From a virus (taxonomy: Duplodnaviria > Heunggongvirae > Uroviricota > Caudoviricetes), in the IMG/VR virus record IMGVR_UViG_2541047938_000008, positions 1 to 41,587 of that record: 41,587 nucleotides of DNA, one strand, 5' to 3'. The notes below the pieces were generated by a model, which was not told where the DNA came from, did not search any database, and saw nothing but the letters and a program-made list of their open reading frames with translations. Shown here piece by piece: positions 27,356 through 41,351 of this stretch (position 1 is the first letter of the stretch; every line of letters starts with the position of its first letter). The translations under genes were made by a program, and so were the position numbers.

Positions 27356-27431
27356 TGGTGCTGGTTAACGGACTTGAACCGCTACCCATTCGCTTACAAG
27401 GCGACTGCTCTACCATTGGAGCTAAACCAGC
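27356..27431 (-). tRNA. tRNA-Thr (anticodon UGU), phage-encoded
   Basis: Hand-folded cloverleaf: 7-bp acceptor stem, D-arm GCTC/GAGC, anticodon loop CTTGTAA, T-arm AGCGG-TTCAAGT-CCGTT, CCA. Confidence 0.6.
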
Positions 27432-27436
27432 ATATT

Positions 27437-27511
27437 TGGCGGGACAGCGTGGACTCGAACCACGATAAGAAGGTTAACAGCCTTCCGTAATGACCTTTAT
27501 ACGACTGACCC
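27437..27511 (-). tRNA. tRNA-Asn (anticodon GUU), phage-encoded
   Basis: Hand-folded cloverleaf: anticodon stem GAAGG/CCTTC, loop CTGTTAA, T-arm CGTGG-TTCGAGT-CCACG, CCA; one U-U mismatch in acceptor stem and 4-nt variable loop. Confidence 0.5.
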
Positions 27512-34782: not shown

Positions 34783-35433
34783 ATGAATACACAACTGATG
34801 GGTGAGCGTATTCGCGCTCGCAGAAAAGAACTCAAGATTAGGCAGGCTGCCCTTGGCAAGATGGTTGGCGTGTCTAATGTTGCTATTTCCCAATGGGAGC
34901 GATCTGAAACTGAGCCCAATGGCGAAAACCTATTGGCCTTAGCCAAGGCTTTGCAGTGCTCCCCTGATTACCTGTTGAAAGGAGAGGATAGTCTTTCAAA
35001 CATTGCCTATCACAGCAGGCATGATCCAAGAGGTTCGTATCCTCTAATTAGTTGGGTAAGCGCAGGATGTTGGATGGAAGCTGTAGAGCCATATCATAGG
35101 CGTGCAATAGATAACTGGTACGACACAACGGTAGATTGTTCTGAAGACTCTTTTTGGCTCGACGTTAAAGGCGATTCAATGACTGCCCCGGCAGGACTGA
35201 GTATTCCTGAGGGGATGATTATTCTCGTCGACCCAGAAGTCGAACCACGTAATGGAAAGCTGGTAGTCGCCAAACTTGAAGGGGAAAACGAGGCGACATT
35301 CAAAAAGTTAGTTATTGATGCCGGTAGAAAATTCCTGAAACCACTCAATCCACAATACCCAATGATTGAAATCAATGGGAACTGTAAAATCATTGGCGTT
35401 GTCGTTGATGCCAAGCTAGCAAACCTTCCTTAA
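34783..35433 (+). CDS. c2: Prophage repressor C2 (P22 type, LexA-like autocleavage domain)
   Basis: 216 aa, near-identical to P22 C2 (MNTQLMGERIRARRKELKIRQAALGKMVGVSNVAISQWERSETEPNG...). Confidence 0.95.
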   Translation: MNTQLMGERIRARRKELKIRQAALGKMVGVSNVAISQWERSETEPNGENLLALAKALQCSPDYLLKGEDSLSNIAYHSRHDPRGSYPLISWVSAGCWMEAVEPYHRRAIDNWYDTTVDCSEDSFWLDVKGDSMTAPAGLSIPEGMIILVDPEVEPRNGKLVVAKLEGENEATFKKLVIDAGRKFLKPLNPQYPMIEINGNCKIIGVVVDAKLANLP

Positions 35434-35637: not shown

Positions 35638-35747
35638 CCAGAACTTGAGTGGTTTTGGGGATGGCGCGAATTGCAGCTGCAAGACAGCGATCGAGAAGAT
35701 AAGCACCTCGACGCGTCATGCGCCAAAGCCACTTAAAGGAGACCATC

Positions 35748-36053
35748 ATGGTAACCATTGTCTGGAAAGAATCCAAAGGTACGGCAAAAAGCCGCTACAA
35801 AGCTCGCAGAGCAGAACTTATTGCCGAGCGACGCAGTAATGAAGCACTGGCGCGAAAAATTGCGCTAAAGCTCTCTGGTTGCGTCAAAGCAGACAAAGCA
35901 GCATCACTAGGAATCCTTTGCTGCAAGAAGAAAGAAGAAGTTGTTCGAAAAAATAGAAGTATTTATTACAAAGATTCAAACCCATTAGGAAACAAAATAC
36001 ATGCAGTCCAAAAAATAAAATTGTACAGTAAACTACCGTACGGTGCTTATTGA
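35748..36053 (+). CDS. N-like early antiterminator (P22 gp24 family)
   Basis: Arg-rich motif GTAKSRYKARRAELIAERR near the N-terminus, strong SD AAGGAGA, position after pL/nutL. Confidence 0.6.
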   Translation: MVTIVWKESKGTAKSRYKARRAELIAERRSNEALARKIALKLSGCVKADKAASLGILCCKKKEEVVRKNRSIYYKDSNPLGNKIHAVQKIKLYSKLPYGAY

Positions 36054-36055
36054 GT

Positions 36056-36394
36056 ATGCTTATGGTGAAAAAGACTATTTATGTTAATCCTGACCGCGGA
36101 CAAAACAGAAAAGTATCTGATAGAGGTCTTACATCTCGAGACAGGAGGAGAATAGCGAGATGGGAAAAGAGGATAGCATATGCATTAAAAAACGGTGTAA
36201 CACCTGGATTTAATGCTATAGATAACGGTCCTGAATATAAGATTAATGAAGACCCAATGGATAAAGTTGACAAAGCATTAGCAACACCATTTCCTCGCGA
36301 TGTCGAAAAAATTGAAGATGAAAAATATGAGGATGTAATGCACAGAGTTGTTAATCACGCTCACCAACGAAATCCAAATAAAAAATGGTCATAG
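36056..36394 (+). CDS. Hypothetical protein downstream of N
   Basis: 112-aa ORF followed by an intrinsic terminator; no recognised motif; start uncertain. Confidence 0.4.
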   Translation: MLMVKKTIYVNPDRGQNRKVSDRGLTSRDRRRIARWEKRIAYALKNGVTPGFNAIDNGPEYKINEDPMDKVDKALATPFPRDVEKIEDEKYEDVMHRVVNHAHQRNPNKKWS

Positions 36395-36597: not shown

Positions 36598-36798
36598 ATG
36601 ACTACGACTATTGATAAAAATCAATGGTGTGGACAATTCAAGCGATGCAATGGATGCAAGCTGCAATCGGAATGCATGGTTAAGCCTGAAGAAATATTTC
36701 CTGTAATGGAAGATGGGAAATATGTCGATAAATGGGCAATACGAACGACGGCAATGATTGCCAGAGAACTTGACAAACAGAGCAACAAGGCTGCCTGA
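36598..36798 (+). CDS. ral: Restriction alleviation protein Ral
   Basis: 66 aa, near-identical to lambda Ral (MTTTIDKNQWCGQFKRCNGCKLQSECMVKPEE...). Confidence 0.85.
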   Translation: MTTTIDKNQWCGQFKRCNGCKLQSECMVKPEEIFPVMEDGKYVDKWAIRTTAMIARELDKQSNKAA

Positions 36799-36878: not shown

Positions 36879-37943
36879 ATGTCGCTCGTAACTAAACAGG
36901 AGCCGACTTGTTCTGATTATTGGAAATCTACTTTGCCCTCCAGTGTGAGGGCAATTTTTTTTGATGGAGGATATATGAGTGAAGTAACAGATTTAGTTGT
37001 TATTGAAAAAGCAAATGCAATGACTGTATTTCAGTCTGCCGACCAGATTGAAGAAATTCTCCAAAAGGTTGAACGTGAAGTTATGTCCTTTGTGCCTGAT
37101 ATCACAACGGCAAAGGGCAGAAAGGAGATCGCTTCTCTGGCGTATAAAGTTGCGCAGACGAAAACATATCTCGATGGTCTTGGCAAAGACCTTGTTGCTG
37201 AACTGAAGGAAATTCCAAAGCTAATTGATGCCAACCGCAAGACAGTGCGTGATCGCCTTGATGAGCTGAAAGCCAAGGCACGCCAGCCTCTTACTGATTA
37301 TGAGGAAGAACAGGCGCGGATTAAAGCCGAAGAAGAAGCTAAGGCAGCAGCTGAAGCTATCGCAAAGCAAATTGAGTCTGACCATGAAATAGCGATTTTG
37401 ATGGATCGCGAATTTGACCGCCAAAGAGAAGAGGCAAGACTCAAAGCGGAGCAGGAAAAGCGAGAGCATGAAGAACGCTTAAAAAGAGAAGCTGAAGAGA
37501 AAGCCAGAGCTGAAGCCGAAGCAAAGGCAAAAGCCGAAATTGAAGCAGCAGCAAGGCGAGAAGCAGAAGCTAAGGCAGCAGCGGAACGTGCAGAGCGTGA
37601 ACGCATTGAAGCCGAGCAACGAGCACAGCGCGAAGCAAAAGAGGCAGCAGAACGAGCTGAAAGAGAAAAGCAGGCGGCAATTGAAGCAGAACGCCGAAAA
37701 GCACAGGAGGAGGCTGAACGAATCCGGCGCGAAGCTGAAGCAAAAGAGCAAGCCAGAATAGCAGAAGAAAAAAGAATCAAGGACGAAGAAGAGCGTAGAG
37801 CAAAGGATAAAGCTCACCGGAAAGAAGTAAATAACAAAATACTTGCTGACCTTATCAAGGTTGGTGCATCAGAAGATGTTGCTAAAAATATCATAACAGC
37901 CATCGTAAAAGGCGAAGTATTCGCAACAAAAATAACCTACTAA
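36879..37943 (+). CDS. Hypothetical protein with a long E/A/K/R-rich single-helix region
   Basis: 354 aa (323 aa if started at MSEVTD, 36975); about 150 aa of charged helix with DNA-level internal repeats; SD and hairpin upstream. Confidence 0.6.
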   Translation: MSLVTKQEPTCSDYWKSTLPSSVRAIFFDGGYMSEVTDLVVIEKANAMTVFQSADQIEEILQKVEREVMSFVPDITTAKGRKEIASLAYKVAQTKTYLDGLGKDLVAELKEIPKLIDANRKTVRDRLDELKAKARQPLTDYEEEQARIKAEEEAKAAAEAIAKQIESDHEIAILMDREFDRQREEARLKAEQEKREHEERLKREAEEKARAEAEAKAKAEIEAAARREAEAKAAAERAERERIEAEQRAQREAKEAAERAEREKQAAIEAERRKAQEEAERIRREAEAKEQARIAEEKRIKDEEERRAKDKAHRKEVNNKILADLIKVGASEDVAKNIITAIVKGEVFATKITY

Positions 37944-37967: not shown

Positions 37968-38099
37968 ATGATTTACGCAATCGCGGGAGGCGCTCGCATG
38001 GGTGCCTTCCAACTAAATGAATCTTTACTAGAACGAATTACCCGTAAATTACGTGACGGATGGAAAAGAGTTGAGGTCTTATTATGCGCAATGAAATAG
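37968..38099 (+). CDS. cIII: CIII-like FtsH inhibitor
   Basis: 43-aa ORF found by hand; core SLLERITRKLRDGWKR matches lambda CIII. Confidence 0.8.
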   Translation: MIYAIAGGARMGAFQLNESLLERITRKLRDGWKRVEVLLCAMK

Positions 38100-38236
38100 C
38101 CATCAATCACCAGATACTTCGTGCAGCACAGAACAAAGCAGTAATAGCCAGATTTATTGGTGATTCCAAAATGTGGCTTGAAGCAAATAAAGCGATGAAA
38201 TCAGCTATCAACCTTCCGTGGTATCGCAGGAAATGA
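38084..38236 (+). CDS. Kil-like small protein
   Basis: 50-aa ORF overlapping the cIII end; ATFIGD-KM-like motif and position as for lambda kil. Confidence 0.4.
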   Translation: MRNEIAINHQILRAAQNKAVIARFIGDSKMWLEANKAMKSAINLPWYRRK

Positions 38237-38492
38237 GTTTTACAGATAACTGGTCAGACGAAGAATTCATTCGTCAGATGAAAGATTTAATCGGTAACGA
38301 AGGAGATATTCATGTCACTTGCAACCACAGTGAAGGAGAGCAAGTTACAGAGACGCATGTACACGCAGAAAGCTCTCTGGTATCGCCATAATGGTGACCG
38401 CGAAGGAATGCGGGTATGCCTTAATTTGTCCCGAGTCGAAGTATTAAATCAGCGTTATTTTCTTGGGCCGTGTCCATTCTGAGAACAATCAT

Positions 38493-39098
38493 ATGAGCAA
38501 AGAATTTTACGCAAGACTGGCAGCTATTCAGGAGAATCTGAACGCGCCAAAGAATCAGTACAACTCATTCGGCAAATATAAATACAGAAGCTGCGAAGAT
38601 ATTCTTGAAGGCGTTAAGCCGTTACTGAATGGTCTGTTTTTATCAATCAGCGATGAAGTTGTGTTGATTGGTGATCGGTATTACGTGAAAGCCACGGCAA
38701 CTATTACCGATGGCGAAAACAGTCATACGGCAACCGCTCTTGCACGAGAGGAAGAAAGCAAGAAAGGAATGGATTCTGCACAAGTTACGGGAGCTACAAG
38801 CTCTTATGCACGCAAGTATTGCCTCAATGGTTTGTTCGGCATTGATGATGCGAAAGATGCAGATACCGACGAGCATAAACATCAGCAGAACGCAGCAGCA
38901 AAGCAATCAAAACCATCACCTACACCTGAACAGGTTCTAAAAGCATTCACTGACGCAGCATTGCAGAAAAACACCGTGGAAGAGCTTAAACAGGCGTTCG
39001 CCAAAGCGTGGAAGATGCTCGAAGGCACACCGGAGCAGCACAAAGCGCAGGACGTTTACAACATCAGACGAGACGAATTAGAAGGAGCTGCTGCTTAA
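38493..39098 (+). CDS. erf: Erf single-strand annealing recombinase
   Basis: MSKEFYARLAAIQENLNAPKNQYNSFGKYKYRSCEDILEGVKPLL matches P22 Erf. Confidence 0.85.
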   Translation: MSKEFYARLAAIQENLNAPKNQYNSFGKYKYRSCEDILEGVKPLLNGLFLSISDEVVLIGDRYYVKATATITDGENSHTATALAREEESKKGMDSAQVTGATSSYARKYCLNGLFGIDDAKDADTDEHKHQQNAAAKQSKPSPTPEQVLKAFTDAALQKNTVEELKQAFAKAWKMLEGTPEQHKAQDVYNIRRDELEGAAA

Positions 39099-39481
39099 TG
39101 GCGCATTCGATTACTGTAAGACTAAACAAGCCCGCAAGAGAGTTTCAGGCCGGGGAAAATATCGGATTCAACATCCGTGCTGGCGTTCAGTATTACGATC
39201 GCCAGACAAAAAAGAAAGAATGGACAAACTACAGCGCCGTTGTATTTGCCAAGCCGGGAGCGCAAGCGGATTACTACCGTAGTGTTCTTGTTGAAGGTGG
39301 CATTGTAGAAATTACCGGAGAAAACATCAGGGTTGATGTTTATCAGGGGCAAAATGGTCAATCAATCACTCTTGAATTACTGAATGCAAAGATTGGATTT
39401 GCAGCTTCAGGAAATGGCCCGCAGCAGCAAAGTAGTAATCATCAAAATCATCCTGAATACGACGATTCAATTCCCTTCTAA
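39098..39481 (+). CDS. Phage single-stranded DNA-binding protein (SSB-like)
   Basis: 127 aa, OB-fold-like, ends with an SSB-type acidic tail ...EYDDSIPF; start overlaps erf stop (TAATG). Confidence 0.6.
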   Translation: MAHSITVRLNKPAREFQAGENIGFNIRAGVQYYDRQTKKKEWTNYSAVVFAKPGAQADYYRSVLVEGGIVEITGENIRVDVYQGQNGQSITLELLNAKIGFAASGNGPQQQSSNHQNHPEYDDSIPF

Positions 39482-39504
39482 ATTAGCAAAATAAGGATTC
39501 CATT

Positions 39505-39801
39505 ATGCCAGCGCCTCTGTATGGTGCGGATGACGCGCGCCGCTGTTCCGGCAATTCCGTATCGGAGGTGCTGGATAAATTCAGAAAAAACTACGATCGG
39601 ATAATGTCGCTACCGCAGGAAACGAAAGAGGAAAAGGAATTTCGCCATTGTATATGGCTTGCAGAGAAAGAAGAACTCGAGCGAATTTACCAGACATCAA
39701 TCCGACCATTCCGCAAAGCCACATATACCCACTTCCCTGAATATATCGACCCGCGCTTGCGTAATTACCGCTCACGCTATGGCGCTATCAGTAATGACTG
39801 A
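39505..39801 (+). CDS. Hypothetical early-left protein
   Basis: 98-aa ORF with SD; no recognised motif. Confidence 0.4.
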
Positions 39802-39811
39802 GGAATTTACC

Positions 39812-39979
39812 ATGAGAGGACTTGCATACAATCCCGGCATTCTTCCGGCAGAAATGATTATTCGCCAACGCGTAAAGCCAATGCCATCGAGAGAGGAATT
39901 ACTTAAGAGAAAGAGTTTCGGTTCTGTTAATGACAACAAATATCTGAATGCGATGTTGCGCAAAGGAGGCAACCAGTGA
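39812..39979 (+). CDS. Hypothetical small protein
   Basis: 55-aa ORF from ATG with SD GAGGAA, stop overlapping the next gene. Confidence 0.3.
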
Positions 39980-40542
39980 GCAAGATTGACTATCAGGTAC
40001 TGCGTGCTAAGGCAGAAAAAGCAACGTGTGGCGAGTGGTCGCTCGAATATGGAGAGAGCCGATTTGATGGTGATGATGCGCTAATTCATCGTGAAGTTGC
40101 TGGATATATTCCCATTTGCAAAATTGAAGGAGCGCATCCAGAAAGCGGTTTCGATGAAGATTTCCAAATGGAACAGCAGGCCAATGCTGAATTCATCGCC
40201 GCAGCCAATCCGGCTACCGTCTTGGCGCTGCTTGGCGAGCTGGAAGCAGCAAAAAAGCGCATAGCAGAACTGGAAGCCGAACCTGTAAGCCAAACTTGCA
40301 AGTTGAACGATCCATCGGGCAACTCTCCGGTAACTCCGGGTGGTTGGATAAGCTGTAGTGATCGAATGCCGGAAGACACCAAAATGTTACTGGCATTTAG
40401 TCAAGGTGAAATCGTGGCCGCATATTGGAACTGGGTTGTAAATCCAATTGATTACAAAAAATATAGAGCTTTCACGTATTTATCAGGAAATATCTTGGAT
40501 GACGTAACTCACTGGATGCCGCTACCAGAGCCTCCACTTTGA
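39976..40542 (+). CDS. Ead/Ea22-like protein with DUF551-type C-terminus
   Basis: 188 aa; central [11 protein letters not shown] coiled segment and C-terminal W...HWMPLPEPP motif. Confidence 0.55.
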
Positions 40543-40638
40543 AAGCGAAGCTTATACATATCTTTTACATCAGCAATCTATTGTTAATCTCCAATCAATG
40601 TTACGTTGTCATCTCACTCATGCTTTGGAGGTAGTGAT

Positions 40639-40818
40639 ATGTCTTGTCCAAAATGCGGTTCTGGAAATATTGCAAAAGAAAAAACAATGCGTGGATGGTC
40701 TGGTGATTATGTGTGCTGCGATTGCGGATACAACGACTCTAAAGACGCATTTGGAGAGCGTGGTAAAAACGAGTTTGTCAAAATTAATAAAGATCGCGAA
40801 GGCAACGGAAAAAGCTAA
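40639..40818 (+). CDS. Small zinc-ribbon protein
   Basis: 59 aa from MSCPKCGSG with two Cys pairs (CPKC, CCDC) and SD GGAGG. Confidence 0.4.
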   Translation: MSCPKCGSGNIAKEKTMRGWSGDYVCCDCGYNDSKDAFGERGKNEFVKINKDREGNGKS

Positions 40819-40883
40819 TTTATTTATTCATATATGAAAACAATGTAACCAATATTCGAATTGAAGAACTGAAAGAACACCAA

Positions 40884-40905
40884 GCCGCCTGATGGCGGTT
40901 TTTTA
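40884..40905 (+). terminator. Intrinsic terminator
   Basis: CCGCC-TGAT-GGCGG hairpin followed by TTTTTTATT. Confidence 0.55.
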
Positions 40906-40918
40906 TTGGAGACAAGAA

Positions 40919-41263
40919 ATGTCAGATTTGGCTATGAAGGTTTTGAAATGGCAATCAACTGGCGATGTCGGTATCAGTAGCGCAACTCTTGCCTCAATCG
41001 CATGTGGGCTGAAAAAGAATATCTATGGTCATCACTTCGGCGCTCCACATGACGCAGCCGATTTCAGACGATGCGTTGCACTTGTTGAGCAGATTCCAGA
41101 AATCAGAGATTCATTCGACAAGGTTGCAAAGCGCGTTCCGTCATTCAAAGGAATCCTCAACGAATGGGATTCACTCGTCGCTCTGTTGAAGTCTGAAATG
41201 AAGACGTACGGGAACAAAGCACCAGAGACTTACAGAAGAATCAGCGAGCTACGCAAGGACTAA
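40919..41263 (+). CDS. Hypothetical protein
   Basis: 114 aa from MSDLAMKVLK; the upstream part of the listed ORF lies inside the terminator. Confidence 0.45.
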   Translation: MSDLAMKVLKWQSTGDVGISSATLASIACGLKKNIYGHHFGAPHDAADFRRCVALVEQIPEIRDSFDKVAKRVPSFKGILNEWDSLVALLKSEMKTYGNKAPETYRRISELRKD

Positions 41264-41320
41264 CCCGCCTCACACTCGATGAGGCATTTTCATTTATCAA
41301 GATATCCAGACCTACCATCG

Positions 41321-41342
41321 CCGCATCAATGCGGTTTTTTTA
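41321..41342 (+). terminator. Intrinsic terminator upstream of torI
   Basis: CCGCA-TCAA-TGCGG hairpin followed by TTTTTTTATT. Confidence 0.55.
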
Positions 41343-41351
41343 TTACCTGAT

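What the first reader, a model, noticed from the sequence alone, without database searches (positions are those of the whole stretch)
39505..41263. Accessory island of five small genes between ssb and torI
Five tightly packed ORFs (98 aa, 55 aa, an Ead/DUF551-type 188 aa, a 59-aa zinc ribbon, 114 aa) lie between two terminators in the highly variable stretch before the excisionase. None has an assignable function from sequence. This region is where lambdoid phages usually hold anti-defence and host-modulation genes.
Basis: inference. Interest (0 to 1): 0.5.

Follow-up and report, generated by a model that had tools for sequence, protein, structure and literature searches.

The report
Ordinary P22-type early-left accessory genes
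The five small genes are real, but they are the well-known "ea" (exo-xis) end of the early-left operon of a P22/HK620-like prophage, and the first gene is the characterised RecBCD-hijacking protein Abc2, so the finding is ordinary.

Summary
All five ORFs exist at the stated coordinates and sizes, each with a Shine-Dalgarno site. The "island" is the distal part of the N-antiterminated pL operon of a P22-like prophage at argW/dsdC.

- **ORF1** is Abc2, about 89% identical to the P22 protein solved on RecBCD, with P68 conserved.
- **ORF2** is DUF2737 (P22 orf56). It travels with abc2 in 209 of 238 phage records.
- **ORF3** has an Ea22/EaD-type N-terminus fused to an EaA-type DUF551 domain.
- **ORF4** is EaG, 91.5% identical to P22 EaG.
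- **ORF5** is 97% identical to HK022_32. It occupies the P22 eaC slot, as a cassette bounded by two hairpin terminators just before torI.

There is no terminator ahead of ORF1; only ORF5 lies between two terminators. Variability is real for 39976-41340. A phage 98.8% identical upstream carries a different gene set there, and only 23 of 5426 E. coli genomes share the arrangement. Every module, however, has near-identical copies in published phages.

The statement that no gene has an assignable function is wrong for abc2. It holds only loosely for ORF2 to ORF5, which belong to named families of unknown function.

One item is mildly interesting. The ORF5 family has about 2,800 clusters, no Pfam model, and a confident all-alpha model with no structural relative in the PDB.

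The parts
38493..39098 (+). erf (ERF-family single-strand annealing recombinase). Upstream context; start of the recombination module.
   Evidence: Pfam ERF E=2.1e-44. PHROG 155.
39098..39481 (+). 127-aa SSB-like protein with a C-terminal ...DDSIPF tail.
   Evidence: PHROG 44 SSB E=2.5e-27. No Pfam hit. The HK022 homologue is annotated 'likely analog of P22 Abc1'.
39505..39801 (+). ORF1 = abc2, the anti-RecBCD protein 2 (binds RecC, recruits host PpiB through P68).
   Evidence: PF11043 E=4.9e-60, 200 bits against a cutoff of 25. PDB 8b1t_A E=1.7e-54, full length, P68 conserved. Mechanism from PMC9836394.
39812..39979 (+). ORF2 = DUF2737 protein (P22 orf56, HK620 hkaI, HK97 gp38). A constant companion of abc2.
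   Evidence: PF10930 E=1.9e-30. Contiguous with abc2 in 209 of 238 phage records.
39976..40542 (+). ORF3 = Ea22/EaD-type N-terminal region (aa 1-102) fused to an EaA/hkaE-type DUF551 C-terminal domain (aa 123-187). A short variant lacking a 51-aa middle segment.
   Evidence: PF13935 E=3.7e-20 and PF04448 E=3.4e-21. Alignment with HK620 hkaG/hkaE, P22 EaD/EaA and the 239-aa E. coli form. Mosaic blastn pieces.
40639..40818 (+). ORF4 = EaG, a 59-aa zinc-ribbon protein (P22 eaG, HK620 hkaD).
   Evidence: 91.5% aa identity to P22 EaG and 94.9% to HK620 hkaD. Only sub-threshold zinc-ribbon and Lar hits.
40848..40892 (+). Relic of the last 15 codons (TNIRIEELKEHQAA*) of the HK022_33 / 434 gp34 gene. 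A conserved mosaic boundary sequence that runs into the hairpin.
   Evidence: Same sequence in Sf6, HK620 and P22.
40882..40909 (+). GC-rich hairpin plus T-run (intrinsic-terminator-like), 10 nt before the ORF5 ribosome-binding site. Identical to the P22 eaG-eaC hairpin, which is annotated there as the terminator of the antisense aI RNA.
   Evidence: dG -13.4 kcal/mol, z -2.67..
40919..41263 (+). ORF5 = 114-aa all-alpha protein of a large uncharacterised phage family (PHROG 1229; HK022_32; 434 gp33). It sits in the P22 eaC slot.
41267..41285 (+). Weak hairpin directly after the ORF5 stop.
   Evidence: dG -9.1 kcal/mol, z -4.1.
41320..41342 (+). Second intrinsic-terminator-like hairpin plus T-run. 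It closes the ORF5 cassette and is homologous to the terminator annotated upstream of pI in phage 434.
41343..41355 (+). Counterpart of the HK620 cII box of the pI promoter. Here it reads TTAC-N5-TTGC, against TTGC-N5-TTGC in HK620.
   Evidence: HK620 annotation. Alignment.
41387..41587 (+). torI (excisionase / TorR inhibitor). Right end of the prophage.
   Evidence: RefSeq annotation of the 99% identical locus, followed by dsdC. PHROG 66.

Best explanation
The interval is the promoter-distal end of the early-left (pL) operon of a P22-like (Lederbergvirus, HK620/Sf6-type) prophage integrated at argW next to dsdC. This is the 'ea' region, equivalent to the lambda exo-xis region. It has two parts.

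**1. 39505-39979: tail of the conserved recombination module (erf, ssb-like, abc2, DUF2737).**
- Abc2 binds the RecC subunit of host RecBCD and engages host PpiB through P68. It converts the nuclease from a phage-degrading enzyme into one that serves Erf-dependent recombination.
- This role is shown for the 89%-identical P22 protein and is inferred here by homology.
- DUF2737 is a small basic protein that almost always follows abc2. Its role is unknown. I infer that it belongs functionally with the recombination/anti-RecBCD module.

**2. 39976-41340: a mosaic of exchangeable cassettes.**
- An Ea22-type protein. Its conserved N-terminal/coiled-coil part probably oligomerises and presents a small beta-barrel DUF551 domain as a binding module. 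By analogy with Ea22 it would bias the lysis-lysogeny decision.
- The EaG zinc ribbon.
- A 114-aa all-alpha protein in the eaC slot.

**Expression (inferred).** The genes have no promoter of their own. They would be transcribed from pL after infection or induction, with the N-like antiterminator encoded upstream letting RNA polymerase read through the hairpin at 40882 and the terminators after ORF5 into torI.

**Origin of the mosaic (inferred).** Cassettes are swapped between phages by recombination at short conserved boundary sequences: the gene relic plus hairpin at 40845-40908, and the terminator tail at 41320-41344.

**Functions of EaG, DUF2737 and ORF5.** These are not known. My best guess is that they are small host-protein binders acting early in lytic growth.
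For: **Identity of the element.**
- yfdC, argW tRNA-Arg(CCT) and intS lie at the left end.
- torI is followed by dsdC in the 99.1% identical E. coli locus.
- The best phage matches are HK633, HK620, Sf6 and HK022.

**Operon context.** Repressor, N-like antiterminator, Nun-like, Ral, Kil and erf are all on the + strand upstream.

**No independent promoter.** No sigma-70-like promoter was found in 38400-41587, against 4.5 expected in shuffles.

**Abc2.**; mechanism from PMC9836394.

**abc2-DUF2737 unit.** 209 of 238 phage records carry both, down to 71% nt identity.

**ORF3 architecture.**. The Ea22 variant with a DUF551 CTD is described in PMC10834534. The pro-lysogenic phenotype of ea22 is reported in PMC7093339. 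The DUF551 model is a small beta-barrel with core pLDDT above 90 and weak Tudor/SH3-like matches.

**EaG.**

**ORF5 cassette and its junctions.**. The same cassette sits directly before three different excisionase types: lambda-type in HK022 and 434, AlpA-type in Stx2 phages, and TorI here.

**Mosaicism.**
- phiv205-1 is 98.8% identical over 6.6 kb upstream but has a different gene set between abc2 and torI.
- The same anchors span 2.5-4.4 kb in other E. coli genomes.
- Only 23 of 5426 genomes hold 80% or more of the arrangement.

**Published view.** For most early-left genes of P22-like phages, functions are not known (PMC8022706).
Against: - Transcription was not observed. Read-through of the hairpins by N-modified polymerase is inferred from the P22 and lambda paradigm.
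- The Ea22 phenotypes come from lambda and Phi24B proteins that share only the N-terminal region with ORF3. ORF3 matches only positions 1-89 of the 139-position Ead_Ea22 profile.
- The link between DUF2737 and Abc2 is synteny only. A few phages carry one gene without the other.
- Nothing indicates what EaG or ORF5 bind.
Confidence: 0.85

Rival explanations
1. A dedicated anti-defence island. All five proteins would be inhibitors of host immunity (restriction, RecBCD, CRISPR, abortive infection), and the variability would reflect an arms race.
For: - abc2 is a bona fide RecBCD countermeasure.
- ral lies upstream in the same operon.
- Phage accessory regions are enriched in counter-defence genes, and P22 abc1 and abc2 sit in one (Silas et al.).
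- The interval is a hot spot of gene exchange.
- EaG has a sub-threshold resemblance to the Lar zinc ribbon (PF14354 E=8e-5). Sf6 carries a Lar-like gene in the same region.
Against: - ORF2 to ORF5 have no match in any named anti-defence or defence family.
- The Lar hit is below the curated cutoff in both libraries: 23.2 against 28.6 bits, and 15 against 39.6 bits. It rests on the CxxC motifs.
- EaG is 91.5% identical between Salmonella P22 and this E. coli prophage. abc2-DUF2737 is a stable unit. Neither is the pattern of fast arms-race turnover.
- The only experimental phenotype for the ORF3 family is developmental: a lysogeny bias.
- None of ORF2 to ORF5 was tested in the published screen.
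Confidence: 0.2
2. ORF5 is a 'moron': an autonomous cassette bracketed by terminators and expressed from the repressed prophage as a lysogenic-conversion or superinfection-exclusion gene.
For: - ORF5 is a discrete 0.4-kb insertion relative to HK620, Sf6 and HK633.
- It has a hairpin terminator on each side.
- It is present in 914 of 5426 E. coli genomes.
Against: - No promoter-like site was found anywhere in 38400-41587.
- Only 10 nt separate the T-run of the upstream hairpin from the ORF5 ribosome-binding site, so there is no room for a promoter after the terminator.
- The same family occurs in virulent phages among early genes: Sergei and the Vibrio oyster phages.
- The model is soluble and all-alpha, with no signal peptide or membrane segment evident.
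Confidence: 0.07
3. The genes are decaying leftovers of recombination with no current function.
For: - ORF3 is a shortened chimera of two genes that are separate in HK620 and P22.
- A 45-nt gene relic lies at 40848-40892.
- The cII box upstream of torI is altered.
Against: - All five ORFs are intact and have ribosome-binding sites.
- ORF3 keeps both Pfam domains above threshold.
- ORF5 has invariant residues across homologues only 30-40% identical.
- EaG and abc2-DUF2737 are conserved between Salmonella and Escherichia phages.
Confidence: 0.03

Closest known systems
Early-left 'ea' region of Salmonella phage P22 (erf, abc1, abc2, orf56, eaE, eaF, eaD, eaI, eaA, eaG, eaC, xis, int)
   Same: - Same operon position and direction.
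- abc2 (about 89% aa identity), orf56/DUF2737 and eaG (91.5% aa identity) are present in the same order.
- The eaG-hairpin-SD-ATGTCAG junction is base-for-base identical.
   Different: - abc1 is replaced by an SSB-like gene.
- eaE, eaF and eaI are absent.
- eaD and eaA are represented by one fused 188-aa gene.
- eaC is replaced by the unrelated ORF5.
- xis/int are of the TorI/IntS type, with attP between them.
Coliphage HK620 hkaJ-hkaC region and phage HK633
   Same: - Same integration module (torI/intS at argW).
- hkaJ (abc2), hkaI (DUF2737) and hkaD (EaG) are 95-99% identical at the DNA level.
- Same terminator and pI region before torI.
   Different: - HK620 has hkaH, hkaG, hkaF and hkaE as separate genes where the window has the single ORF3.
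- HK620 has no ORF5. Its hairpin is followed directly by the cII box and torI.
Coliphage HK022 genes 41 to 32 (also phage 434 gp33)
   Same: - Same order: erf, 127-aa SSB-like, abc2, DUF2737, Ea22-like ... ORF5 homologue (HK022_32, 97.4% aa), then the excisionase.
- The ORF5 cassette with both flanking hairpins is 96% identical.
   Different: - HK022 has four extra genes between the Ea22-like gene and ORF5.
- It carries a different 59-aa gene instead of EaG.
- It has lambda-type xis/int.
Lambda / Stx-phage exo-xis region and Ea22 (variant V2 with a DUF551 C-terminal domain)
   Same: - Non-essential genes between the recombination genes and xis, transcribed early from pL.
- ORF3 shares the Ead_Ea22 N-terminal signature and the DUF551 CTD of Ea22_V2.
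   Different: - No orf60a, orf61, orf63 or ea8.5 homologues.
- ORF3 is much shorter than the Stx Ea22 variants and matches only the first 89 of 139 profile positions.
- Tetramerisation and the pro-lysogenic effect are untested here.

Membership tests
Abc2 / Anti-RecBCD protein 2 (PF11043) | Full-length match to the family profile above the curated cutoff | tested here: met
   200.2 bits against a cutoff of 25, residues 1-98 on profile positions 1-97 of 97. PHROG 656 'abc2 anti-RecBCD' E=2e-55.
Abc2 / Anti-RecBCD protein 2 (PF11043) | Close similarity to the experimentally characterised P22 protein, including the RecC-binding helices (aa 3-66) and P68, which engages PpiB | tested here: met
   8b1t_A E=1.7e-54. 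By my count of the alignment there are 4 substitutions in residues 1-66, and P68 is present. The roles of these residues come from PMC9836394.
Abc2 / Anti-RecBCD protein 2 (PF11043) | Encoded next to a phage recombinase (erf) in the early-left operon | tested here: met
   erf at 38493-39098, one gene upstream.
Abc2 / Anti-RecBCD protein 2 (PF11043) | Physical binding to RecBCD and modification of its activity | not testable with these tools
   Needs co-purification or nuclease assays.
DUF2737 (PF10930; P22 orf56 / HK620 hkaI) | Profile match above cutoff and position directly after abc2 | tested here: met
   104.9 bits against a cutoff of 25. Contiguous with abc2 here and in 209 of 238 phage records.
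Ead/Ea22-like (PF13935) | N-terminal segment plus central coiled-coil signature | tested here: met
   73.4 bits against a cutoff of 27. The match covers only profile positions 1-89 of 139 (residues 2-102), so the coiled coil is truncated. The N-terminus is nearly identical to HK620 hkaG.
Ead/Ea22-like (PF13935) | Lambda-type Ea22 C-terminal domain (the NMR structure) | tested here: not met
   The C-terminus is DUF551 instead. No PDB sequence match. This corresponds to the 'Ea22_V2' architecture of PMC10834534.
Ead/Ea22-like (PF13935) | Tetramer; favours lysogeny | not testable with these tools
   Phenotypes are reported only for lambda and Phi24B (PMC7093339).
DUF551 (PF04448) | Profile match above cutoff with the W-I-x-C-S ... 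H-W-M-P-L-P-x-P-P motifs | tested here: met
   76.3 bits against a cutoff of 22. Motifs are conserved in alignment A7. The model is a small beta-barrel.
P22 EaG | Orthology to P22 eaG by sequence and by position (last conserved ea gene before the hairpin) | tested here: met
   91.5% aa identity over 59 of 59 residues. Identical downstream junction.
Lar restriction-alleviation family (PF14354 / TIGR03655) | Profile match above the curated cutoff | tested here: not met
   PF14354: 23.2 bits against a cutoff of 28.6. TIGR03655: 15 bits against a cutoff of 39.6. Pairwise similarity to Sf6 gp20 is confined to the CxxC knuckles.
PHROG 1229 (ORF5 family; HK022_32 / 434 gp33) | Full-length profile match with the conserved S20, P43-x-D45, D48, R51-C52 and W83 positions | tested here: met
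   E=2.8e-51, residues 1-114. Invariant columns in 51 diverse homologues.
Moron (autonomous promoter-gene-terminator cassette) | Own promoter upstream of the gene | tested here: not met
   No promoter-like site in 38400-41587. The hairpin T-run ends 10 nt before the ribosome-binding site.
Moron (autonomous promoter-gene-terminator cassette) | Terminator downstream, and presence/absence polymorphism between related phages | tested here: met
   Hairpins at 41267-41285 and 41320-41335. The cassette is absent from HK620, Sf6 and HK633.
Known anti-defence proteins (Ocr, ArdA, Ral, Gam, Acr, Tad, Gad and others) | Sequence or fold similarity of ORF2 to ORF5 to a characterised inhibitor | tested here: not met
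   - No Pfam, NCBIfam or PADLOC family.
- No PDB sequence hit.
- No dedicated anti-defence library was available.

The most novel reading that the evidence does not exclude
ORF5 (40919-41263) represents a large, unnamed family of phage early proteins.
- About 2,800 clusters at 50% identity, spanning Enterobacteria, Vibrio, Haemophilus and Arthrobacter phages.
- A confidently predicted seven-helix fold with no relative in the PDB.
- An invariant S...PxDxxDxxRC...W signature.

In lambdoid phages it travels as a terminator-bounded cassette that always lands as the last pL gene before whichever excisionase the phage has. It could be an unrecognised host-takeover or counter-defence factor. Alternatively, given its fixed position, it could be an accessory factor of the excision/integration decision.

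Rare fusions hint at a nucleic-acid-related partner: zinc ribbon::ORF5-domain in three cluster representatives, and a CCA-adding enzyme::ORF5-domain in one short contig.
Probability: 0.25. Interest if true: 0.5.

Novelty: already known. Interest (0 to 1): 0.2.

Why it matters
As an island it matters little. It is a textbook example of the mosaic early-left region of P22-like phages. Its one functionally understood gene, abc2, is already characterised structurally.

The practical points are these:
- The left boundary of the variable region should be drawn after DUF2737, not before abc2.
- abc2-DUF2737 behaves as a two-gene unit. This makes the 55-aa protein a cheap candidate for a missing partner in the Abc/Erf-RecBCD system.
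- The ORF5 family is abundant (17% of complete E. coli genomes), structurally confident and wholly uncharacterised, so it is a reasonable target for anti-defence or host-interaction screens.

Tried and rejected
- **Lar-type anti-restriction function for EaG.** Rejected as a membership claim. The hits are below the cutoffs and confined to the cysteine knuckles.
- **Domain fusions of the ORF5 domain.** Most N-terminal extensions have no Pfam hit. The Cca fusion sits on a single 1.9-kb contig, so it may be an artefact. The zinc ribbons fused to ORF5 domains are not detectably related to EaG.
- **Conserved neighbours of ORF5 in distant phages.** None found beyond 'small early genes near recombination genes'.
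- **Genome-contig scan.** The diverse alignment failed. The close alignment returned only three near-identical loci.
- **Structured RNAs.** No Rfam match in 38400-41587 at E<=1.
- **Composition.** Unremarkable, GC 0.39-0.50.
- **Defence-system models.** No hits.
- **Literature.** DUF2737 appears in one unrelated paper. No functional study of EaG or of the ORF5 family was found. The Silas screen supplement contains Abc2 but none of ORF2 to ORF5.
Full report
**What the window is.** The window starts with yfdC, the argW tRNA-Arg(CCT) gene (1009-1083) and an IntS-type integrase (1209-2402). It ends at the stop codon of torI. In the best E. coli match (NZ_AP021891, 99.1% identity over 39098-41587), torI is followed by dsdC. 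The window is therefore a complete P22-like prophage at the argW/dsdC site. Its nearest phage relatives in this region are HK633, HK620, Sf6, Sf101 and HK022. On the + strand upstream of the finding lie the following genes:
- the repressor (34783-35433);
- an N-like antiterminator (35718-36053);
- a Nun-like gene;
- ral (36598-36798);
- kil (38084-38236);
- erf (38493-39098);
- a 127-aa SSB-like gene (39098-39481).

The finding is thus the promoter-distal end of the early-left (pL) operon.

**Check of the observation.** The five ORFs exist with the stated sizes:
- ORF1: 39505-39801, 98 aa.
- ORF2: 39812-39979, 55 aa.
- ORF3: 39976-40542, 188 aa, with a GTG start overlapping the ORF2 stop as GTGA.
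- ORF4: 40639-40818, 59 aa.
- ORF5: 40919-41263, 114 aa.

Each start is preceded at 6-7 nt by AAGGA, GAGGA, AAGGAGG, GGAGG or GGAG (read). RefSeq annotates the same five CDS in the near-identical chromosome.

The statement that they lie between two terminators does not hold.
- The 23-nt spacer before ORF1 does not fold (dG -1.2 kcal/mol, z +0.66).
- The terminator-like hairpins are at 40882-40901 (dG -13.4), at 41267-41285 (-9.1) and at 41320-41335 (-8.3).
- One hairpin is therefore inside the island, and only ORF5 is bracketed.

No sigma-70-like promoter was found in 38400-41587, against 4.5 expected in shuffles. No Rfam family matched. Base composition is unremarkable.

**ORF1 is Abc2.**
- It matches Pfam Anti-RecBCD_p2 over its full length (E=4.9e-60, 200 bits against a cutoff of 25) and PHROG 656 'abc2 anti-RecBCD'.
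- It aligns end to end with the P22 Abc2 chain solved in complex with RecBCD (8b1t_A, E=1.7e-54). By my count of that alignment, 87 of 98 positions are identical, with four substitutions in residues 1-66.
- Wilkinson et al. [quoted passage not shown] They also showed that P68 sits in the active site of the co-purifying host PpiB. P68 is present here.

**ORF2 is DUF2737.** It matches PF10930 at E=1.9e-30 and corresponds to P22 orf56, HK620 hkaI and HK97 gp38. A search with abc2 plus ORF2 (39505-39979) against 50,697 phage records found 238 with any match. Of these, 209 carry at least 80% of the pair as one contiguous place. This holds even at 71% nucleotide identity, and across Salmonella P22-likes, coliphages and Stx phages. 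The first two genes therefore belong to the conserved recombination module, not to the variable island. No function is known, and the only paper that mentions the family is unrelated.

**ORF3 is a chimera.**
- Residues 2-102 match Ead_Ea22 (PF13935, 73 bits), but only profile positions 1-89 of 139. Residues 123-187 match DUF551 (PF04448, 76 bits).
- The N-terminal 100 residues are nearly identical to HK620 hkaG and related to P22 EaD. The C-terminal part ([19 protein letters not shown]...[10 protein letters not shown]) is that of HK620 hkaE and P22 EaA. A 239-aa E. coli version carries an extra 51-aa middle segment that the window lacks.
- The exact 567-bp form occurs in only five E. coli records.
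- This N-terminus/coiled-coil plus interchangeable C-terminal domain design is what Donaldson and colleagues describe for Ea22. One Stx-phage variant (V2) carries DUF551 (PMC10834534).
- Deleting ea22 from lambda and Phi24B lowers lysogenisation (PMC7093339).
- DUF551 also occurs in YfdS of the CPS-53 prophage at the same argW site (PMC4776307).

**ORF4 is EaG.** It is 91.5% identical to P22 EaG and 94.9% identical to HK620 hkaD. It is found in only 40 phage records, all enteric P22-like or lambdoid. It has a CxxC...CxxC zinc ribbon. Its matches to Lar (PF14354, 23.2 bits against a cutoff of 28.6; TIGR03655, 15 against 39.6) are below threshold. They rest on the cysteine knuckles. I do not file it as Lar.

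**ORF5 and its cassette.**
- ORF5 has no Pfam or NCBIfam match but matches PHROG 1229 (unknown function) over its full length.
- It is 97.4% identical to HK022_32 ('N15 early protein homolog') and 94.7% identical to a phage 434 protein. It is common in Stx phages.
- Relative to HK620, Sf6 and HK633, the segment from about 40909 to 41344 is an insertion. In those phages the hairpin ...GCCGCCTGATGGCGGTTTTTTATTG is followed directly by CCTGATTTGCAGGTTCGATTCCC (HK620's annotated cII box and pI) and torI.
- In the window the same hairpin is followed by the ORF5 ribosome-binding site and gene, then by a second terminator, GCCGCATCAATGCGGTTTTTTTATTA, and only then by CCTGATTTGC....
- The hairpin, the ribosome-binding site and the first seven coding bases (ATGTCAG) are identical to the P22 eaG-eaC junction. 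ORF5 therefore occupies the eaC slot, and the mosaic joint lies just inside the gene.
- In P22 that hairpin is annotated as the terminator of the antisense aI RNA.
- The 45 nt before the hairpin loop (40848-40892) encode TNIRIEELKEHQAA*, the C-terminus of a different small gene present in HK022 and 434. They are a gene relic that serves as a conserved boundary sequence.
- The whole 40845-41340 block is 96% identical to HK022 and 93% identical to 434. It sits immediately before three different excisionase types: lambda-type, AlpA-type and TorI.
- The cassette is present in 914 of 5426 complete E. coli genomes.

**The ORF5 family at large.**
- A profile search of 1.84 billion cluster representatives found 2833 proteins at E<=1e-3 and 634 at E<=1e-10.
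- tblastn finds relatives in Vibrio oyster phages, the virulent Salmonella phage Sergei, Arthrobacter phages and the Mu-like SuMu. They always lie among small early genes near recombination functions, with no conserved partner.
- Across 51 homologues with 30-60% identity, S20, P43, D45, D48, R51, C52 and W83 are invariant.
- The AlphaFold model is confident (pLDDT 93.4, pTM 0.87) and has seven helices.
- A few representatives are fusions. Three have an N-terminal zinc ribbon. One has a CCA-adding enzyme, but it sits on a single 1.9-kb contig. The fused zinc ribbons are not detectably related to EaG.
- I found no experimental work on this family. The Silas et al. accessory-gene screen included Abc2 but none of ORF2 to ORF5.

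**Variability.**
- Only 23 of 5426 E. coli genomes carry 80% or more of 39098-41587 in one place, while 3475 carry some part of it.
- Between the same anchors, other genomes span 2.5-4.4 kb. They carry HNH endonucleases, dATP/dGTP pyrophosphohydrolases, DUF7446, DUF7739, DUF5405, DUF4752 or IS elements. The window has the shortest version listed.
- Phage phiv205-1 is 98.8% identical over the 6.6 kb upstream (P through erf), yet has six unrelated genes between abc2 and torI.

The interval from 39976 to 41340 is thus a hot spot of cassette exchange, as published for P22-like phages. The phage L analysis describes 'a very highly mosaic relationship' and notes that for most early-left genes 'functions are not known' (PMC8022706). 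At the same time every cassette has 91-99% identical copies in long-published phages.

**How it most likely works.**
- *Shown by homology to solved or tested proteins:* Abc2 binds RecC and redirects RecBCD.
- *Inferred from anatomy:* there is no internal promoter, the ribosome-binding sites are good, ORF2 and ORF3 are translationally coupled, and an N-like antiterminator is encoded upstream. The genes would therefore be expressed from pL after infection or induction, with N-modified polymerase reading through the hairpins into torI.
- *Inferred by analogy:* ORF3 oligomerises through its Ea22-type N-terminal region and presents DUF551 as a binding domain. It may bias the lysis-lysogeny decision.
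- *Unknown:* DUF2737, EaG and ORF5. I guess that they are small binders of host proteins acting early. DUF2737 is the most likely to be tied to the recombination/anti-RecBCD module, because of its near-constant linkage to abc2.

The anti-defence reading for all five genes remains possible but unsupported (about 0.2). The moron reading for ORF5 fails the promoter test (about 0.07).

**Verdict.** The ORFs are real. The thing itself is an already known kind of phage region, built from already sequenced modules. Interest is low (0.2). The residual novelty lies in the uncharacterised ORF5 family.

Noticed in passing
It matches PHROG 44 (SSB) and ends in ...PEYDDSIPF, which resembles the SSB C-terminal tail. 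It sits in the slot that abc1 occupies in P22. The HK022 homologue is annotated 'likely analog of P22 Abc1'.
   Followed up: partly
window 39505-39979: abc2 and the 55-aa DUF2737 gene are inherited as one unit: 209 of 238 phage records with any match carry both, down to 71% nt identity. This suggests a functional link that has not been studied.
   Followed up: partly
window 40848-40892: The 45 nt before the hairpin loop encode TNIRIEELKEHQAA*, the C-terminus of an unrelated small gene of HK022 and 434. This is a gene relic conserved as a recombination boundary in P22, HK620, Sf6 and the window.
   Followed up: yes
window 41343-41355: The counterpart of HK620's annotated cII-binding box of the pI promoter reads TTAC-N5-TTGC, against TTGC-N5-TTGC in HK620. 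The ORF5 cassette brought its own terminator tail. cII-dependent transcription towards torI may therefore be weakened.
   Followed up: no
window 40919-41263; proteins P0097, P0155, P0193, P0171: The ORF5 family has about 2,800 clusters at 50% identity, no Pfam model, a confident all-alpha fold with no PDB relative, and invariant S, P-x-D, D, R-C and W positions. Rare fusions exist: to N-terminal zinc ribbons (three representatives) and to a CCA-adding enzyme (one, on a single short contig).
   Followed up: partly
L005 (HK022), L006 (434), L018 (Stx2a_WGPS6): The ORF5 cassette with its flanking hairpins is always the last gene before the excisionase, although the excisionases are of three unrelated types (lambda Xis, AlpA-type, TorI).
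   Followed up: partly
window 39976-40542 vs L013 2501-3220: ORF3 is a 51-codon shorter, in-frame variant of a 239-aa Ead/DUF551 protein found in other E. coli prophages. The exact short form is in only five E. coli records.
   Followed up: yes
window 35718-36394: An N-like antiterminator gene (111 aa) is followed directly, with overlapping stop and start, by a 114-aa gene matching PHROG 5632 'Nun-like transcription termination factor' (E=1.7e-70).
   Followed up: no
window 36879-37943: A 354-aa early-left protein with a long, highly charged E/A/K/R-rich repetitive middle (PHROG 1376, unknown function). It is reminiscent of the repeat-containing orf232 noted in phage L.
   Followed up: no
window 27356-27511 (- strand): Two phage-borne tRNA genes, tRNA-Thr(TGT) and tRNA-Asn(GTT), lie side by side inside the prophage.
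   Followed up: no
L007 (phage phiv205-1) 11196-13385: This phage is 98.8% identical to the window from gene P to erf. It has six different genes, including an XRE-family regulator, in place of ORF2 to ORF5, and lacks DUF2737 after abc2.
   Followed up: partly
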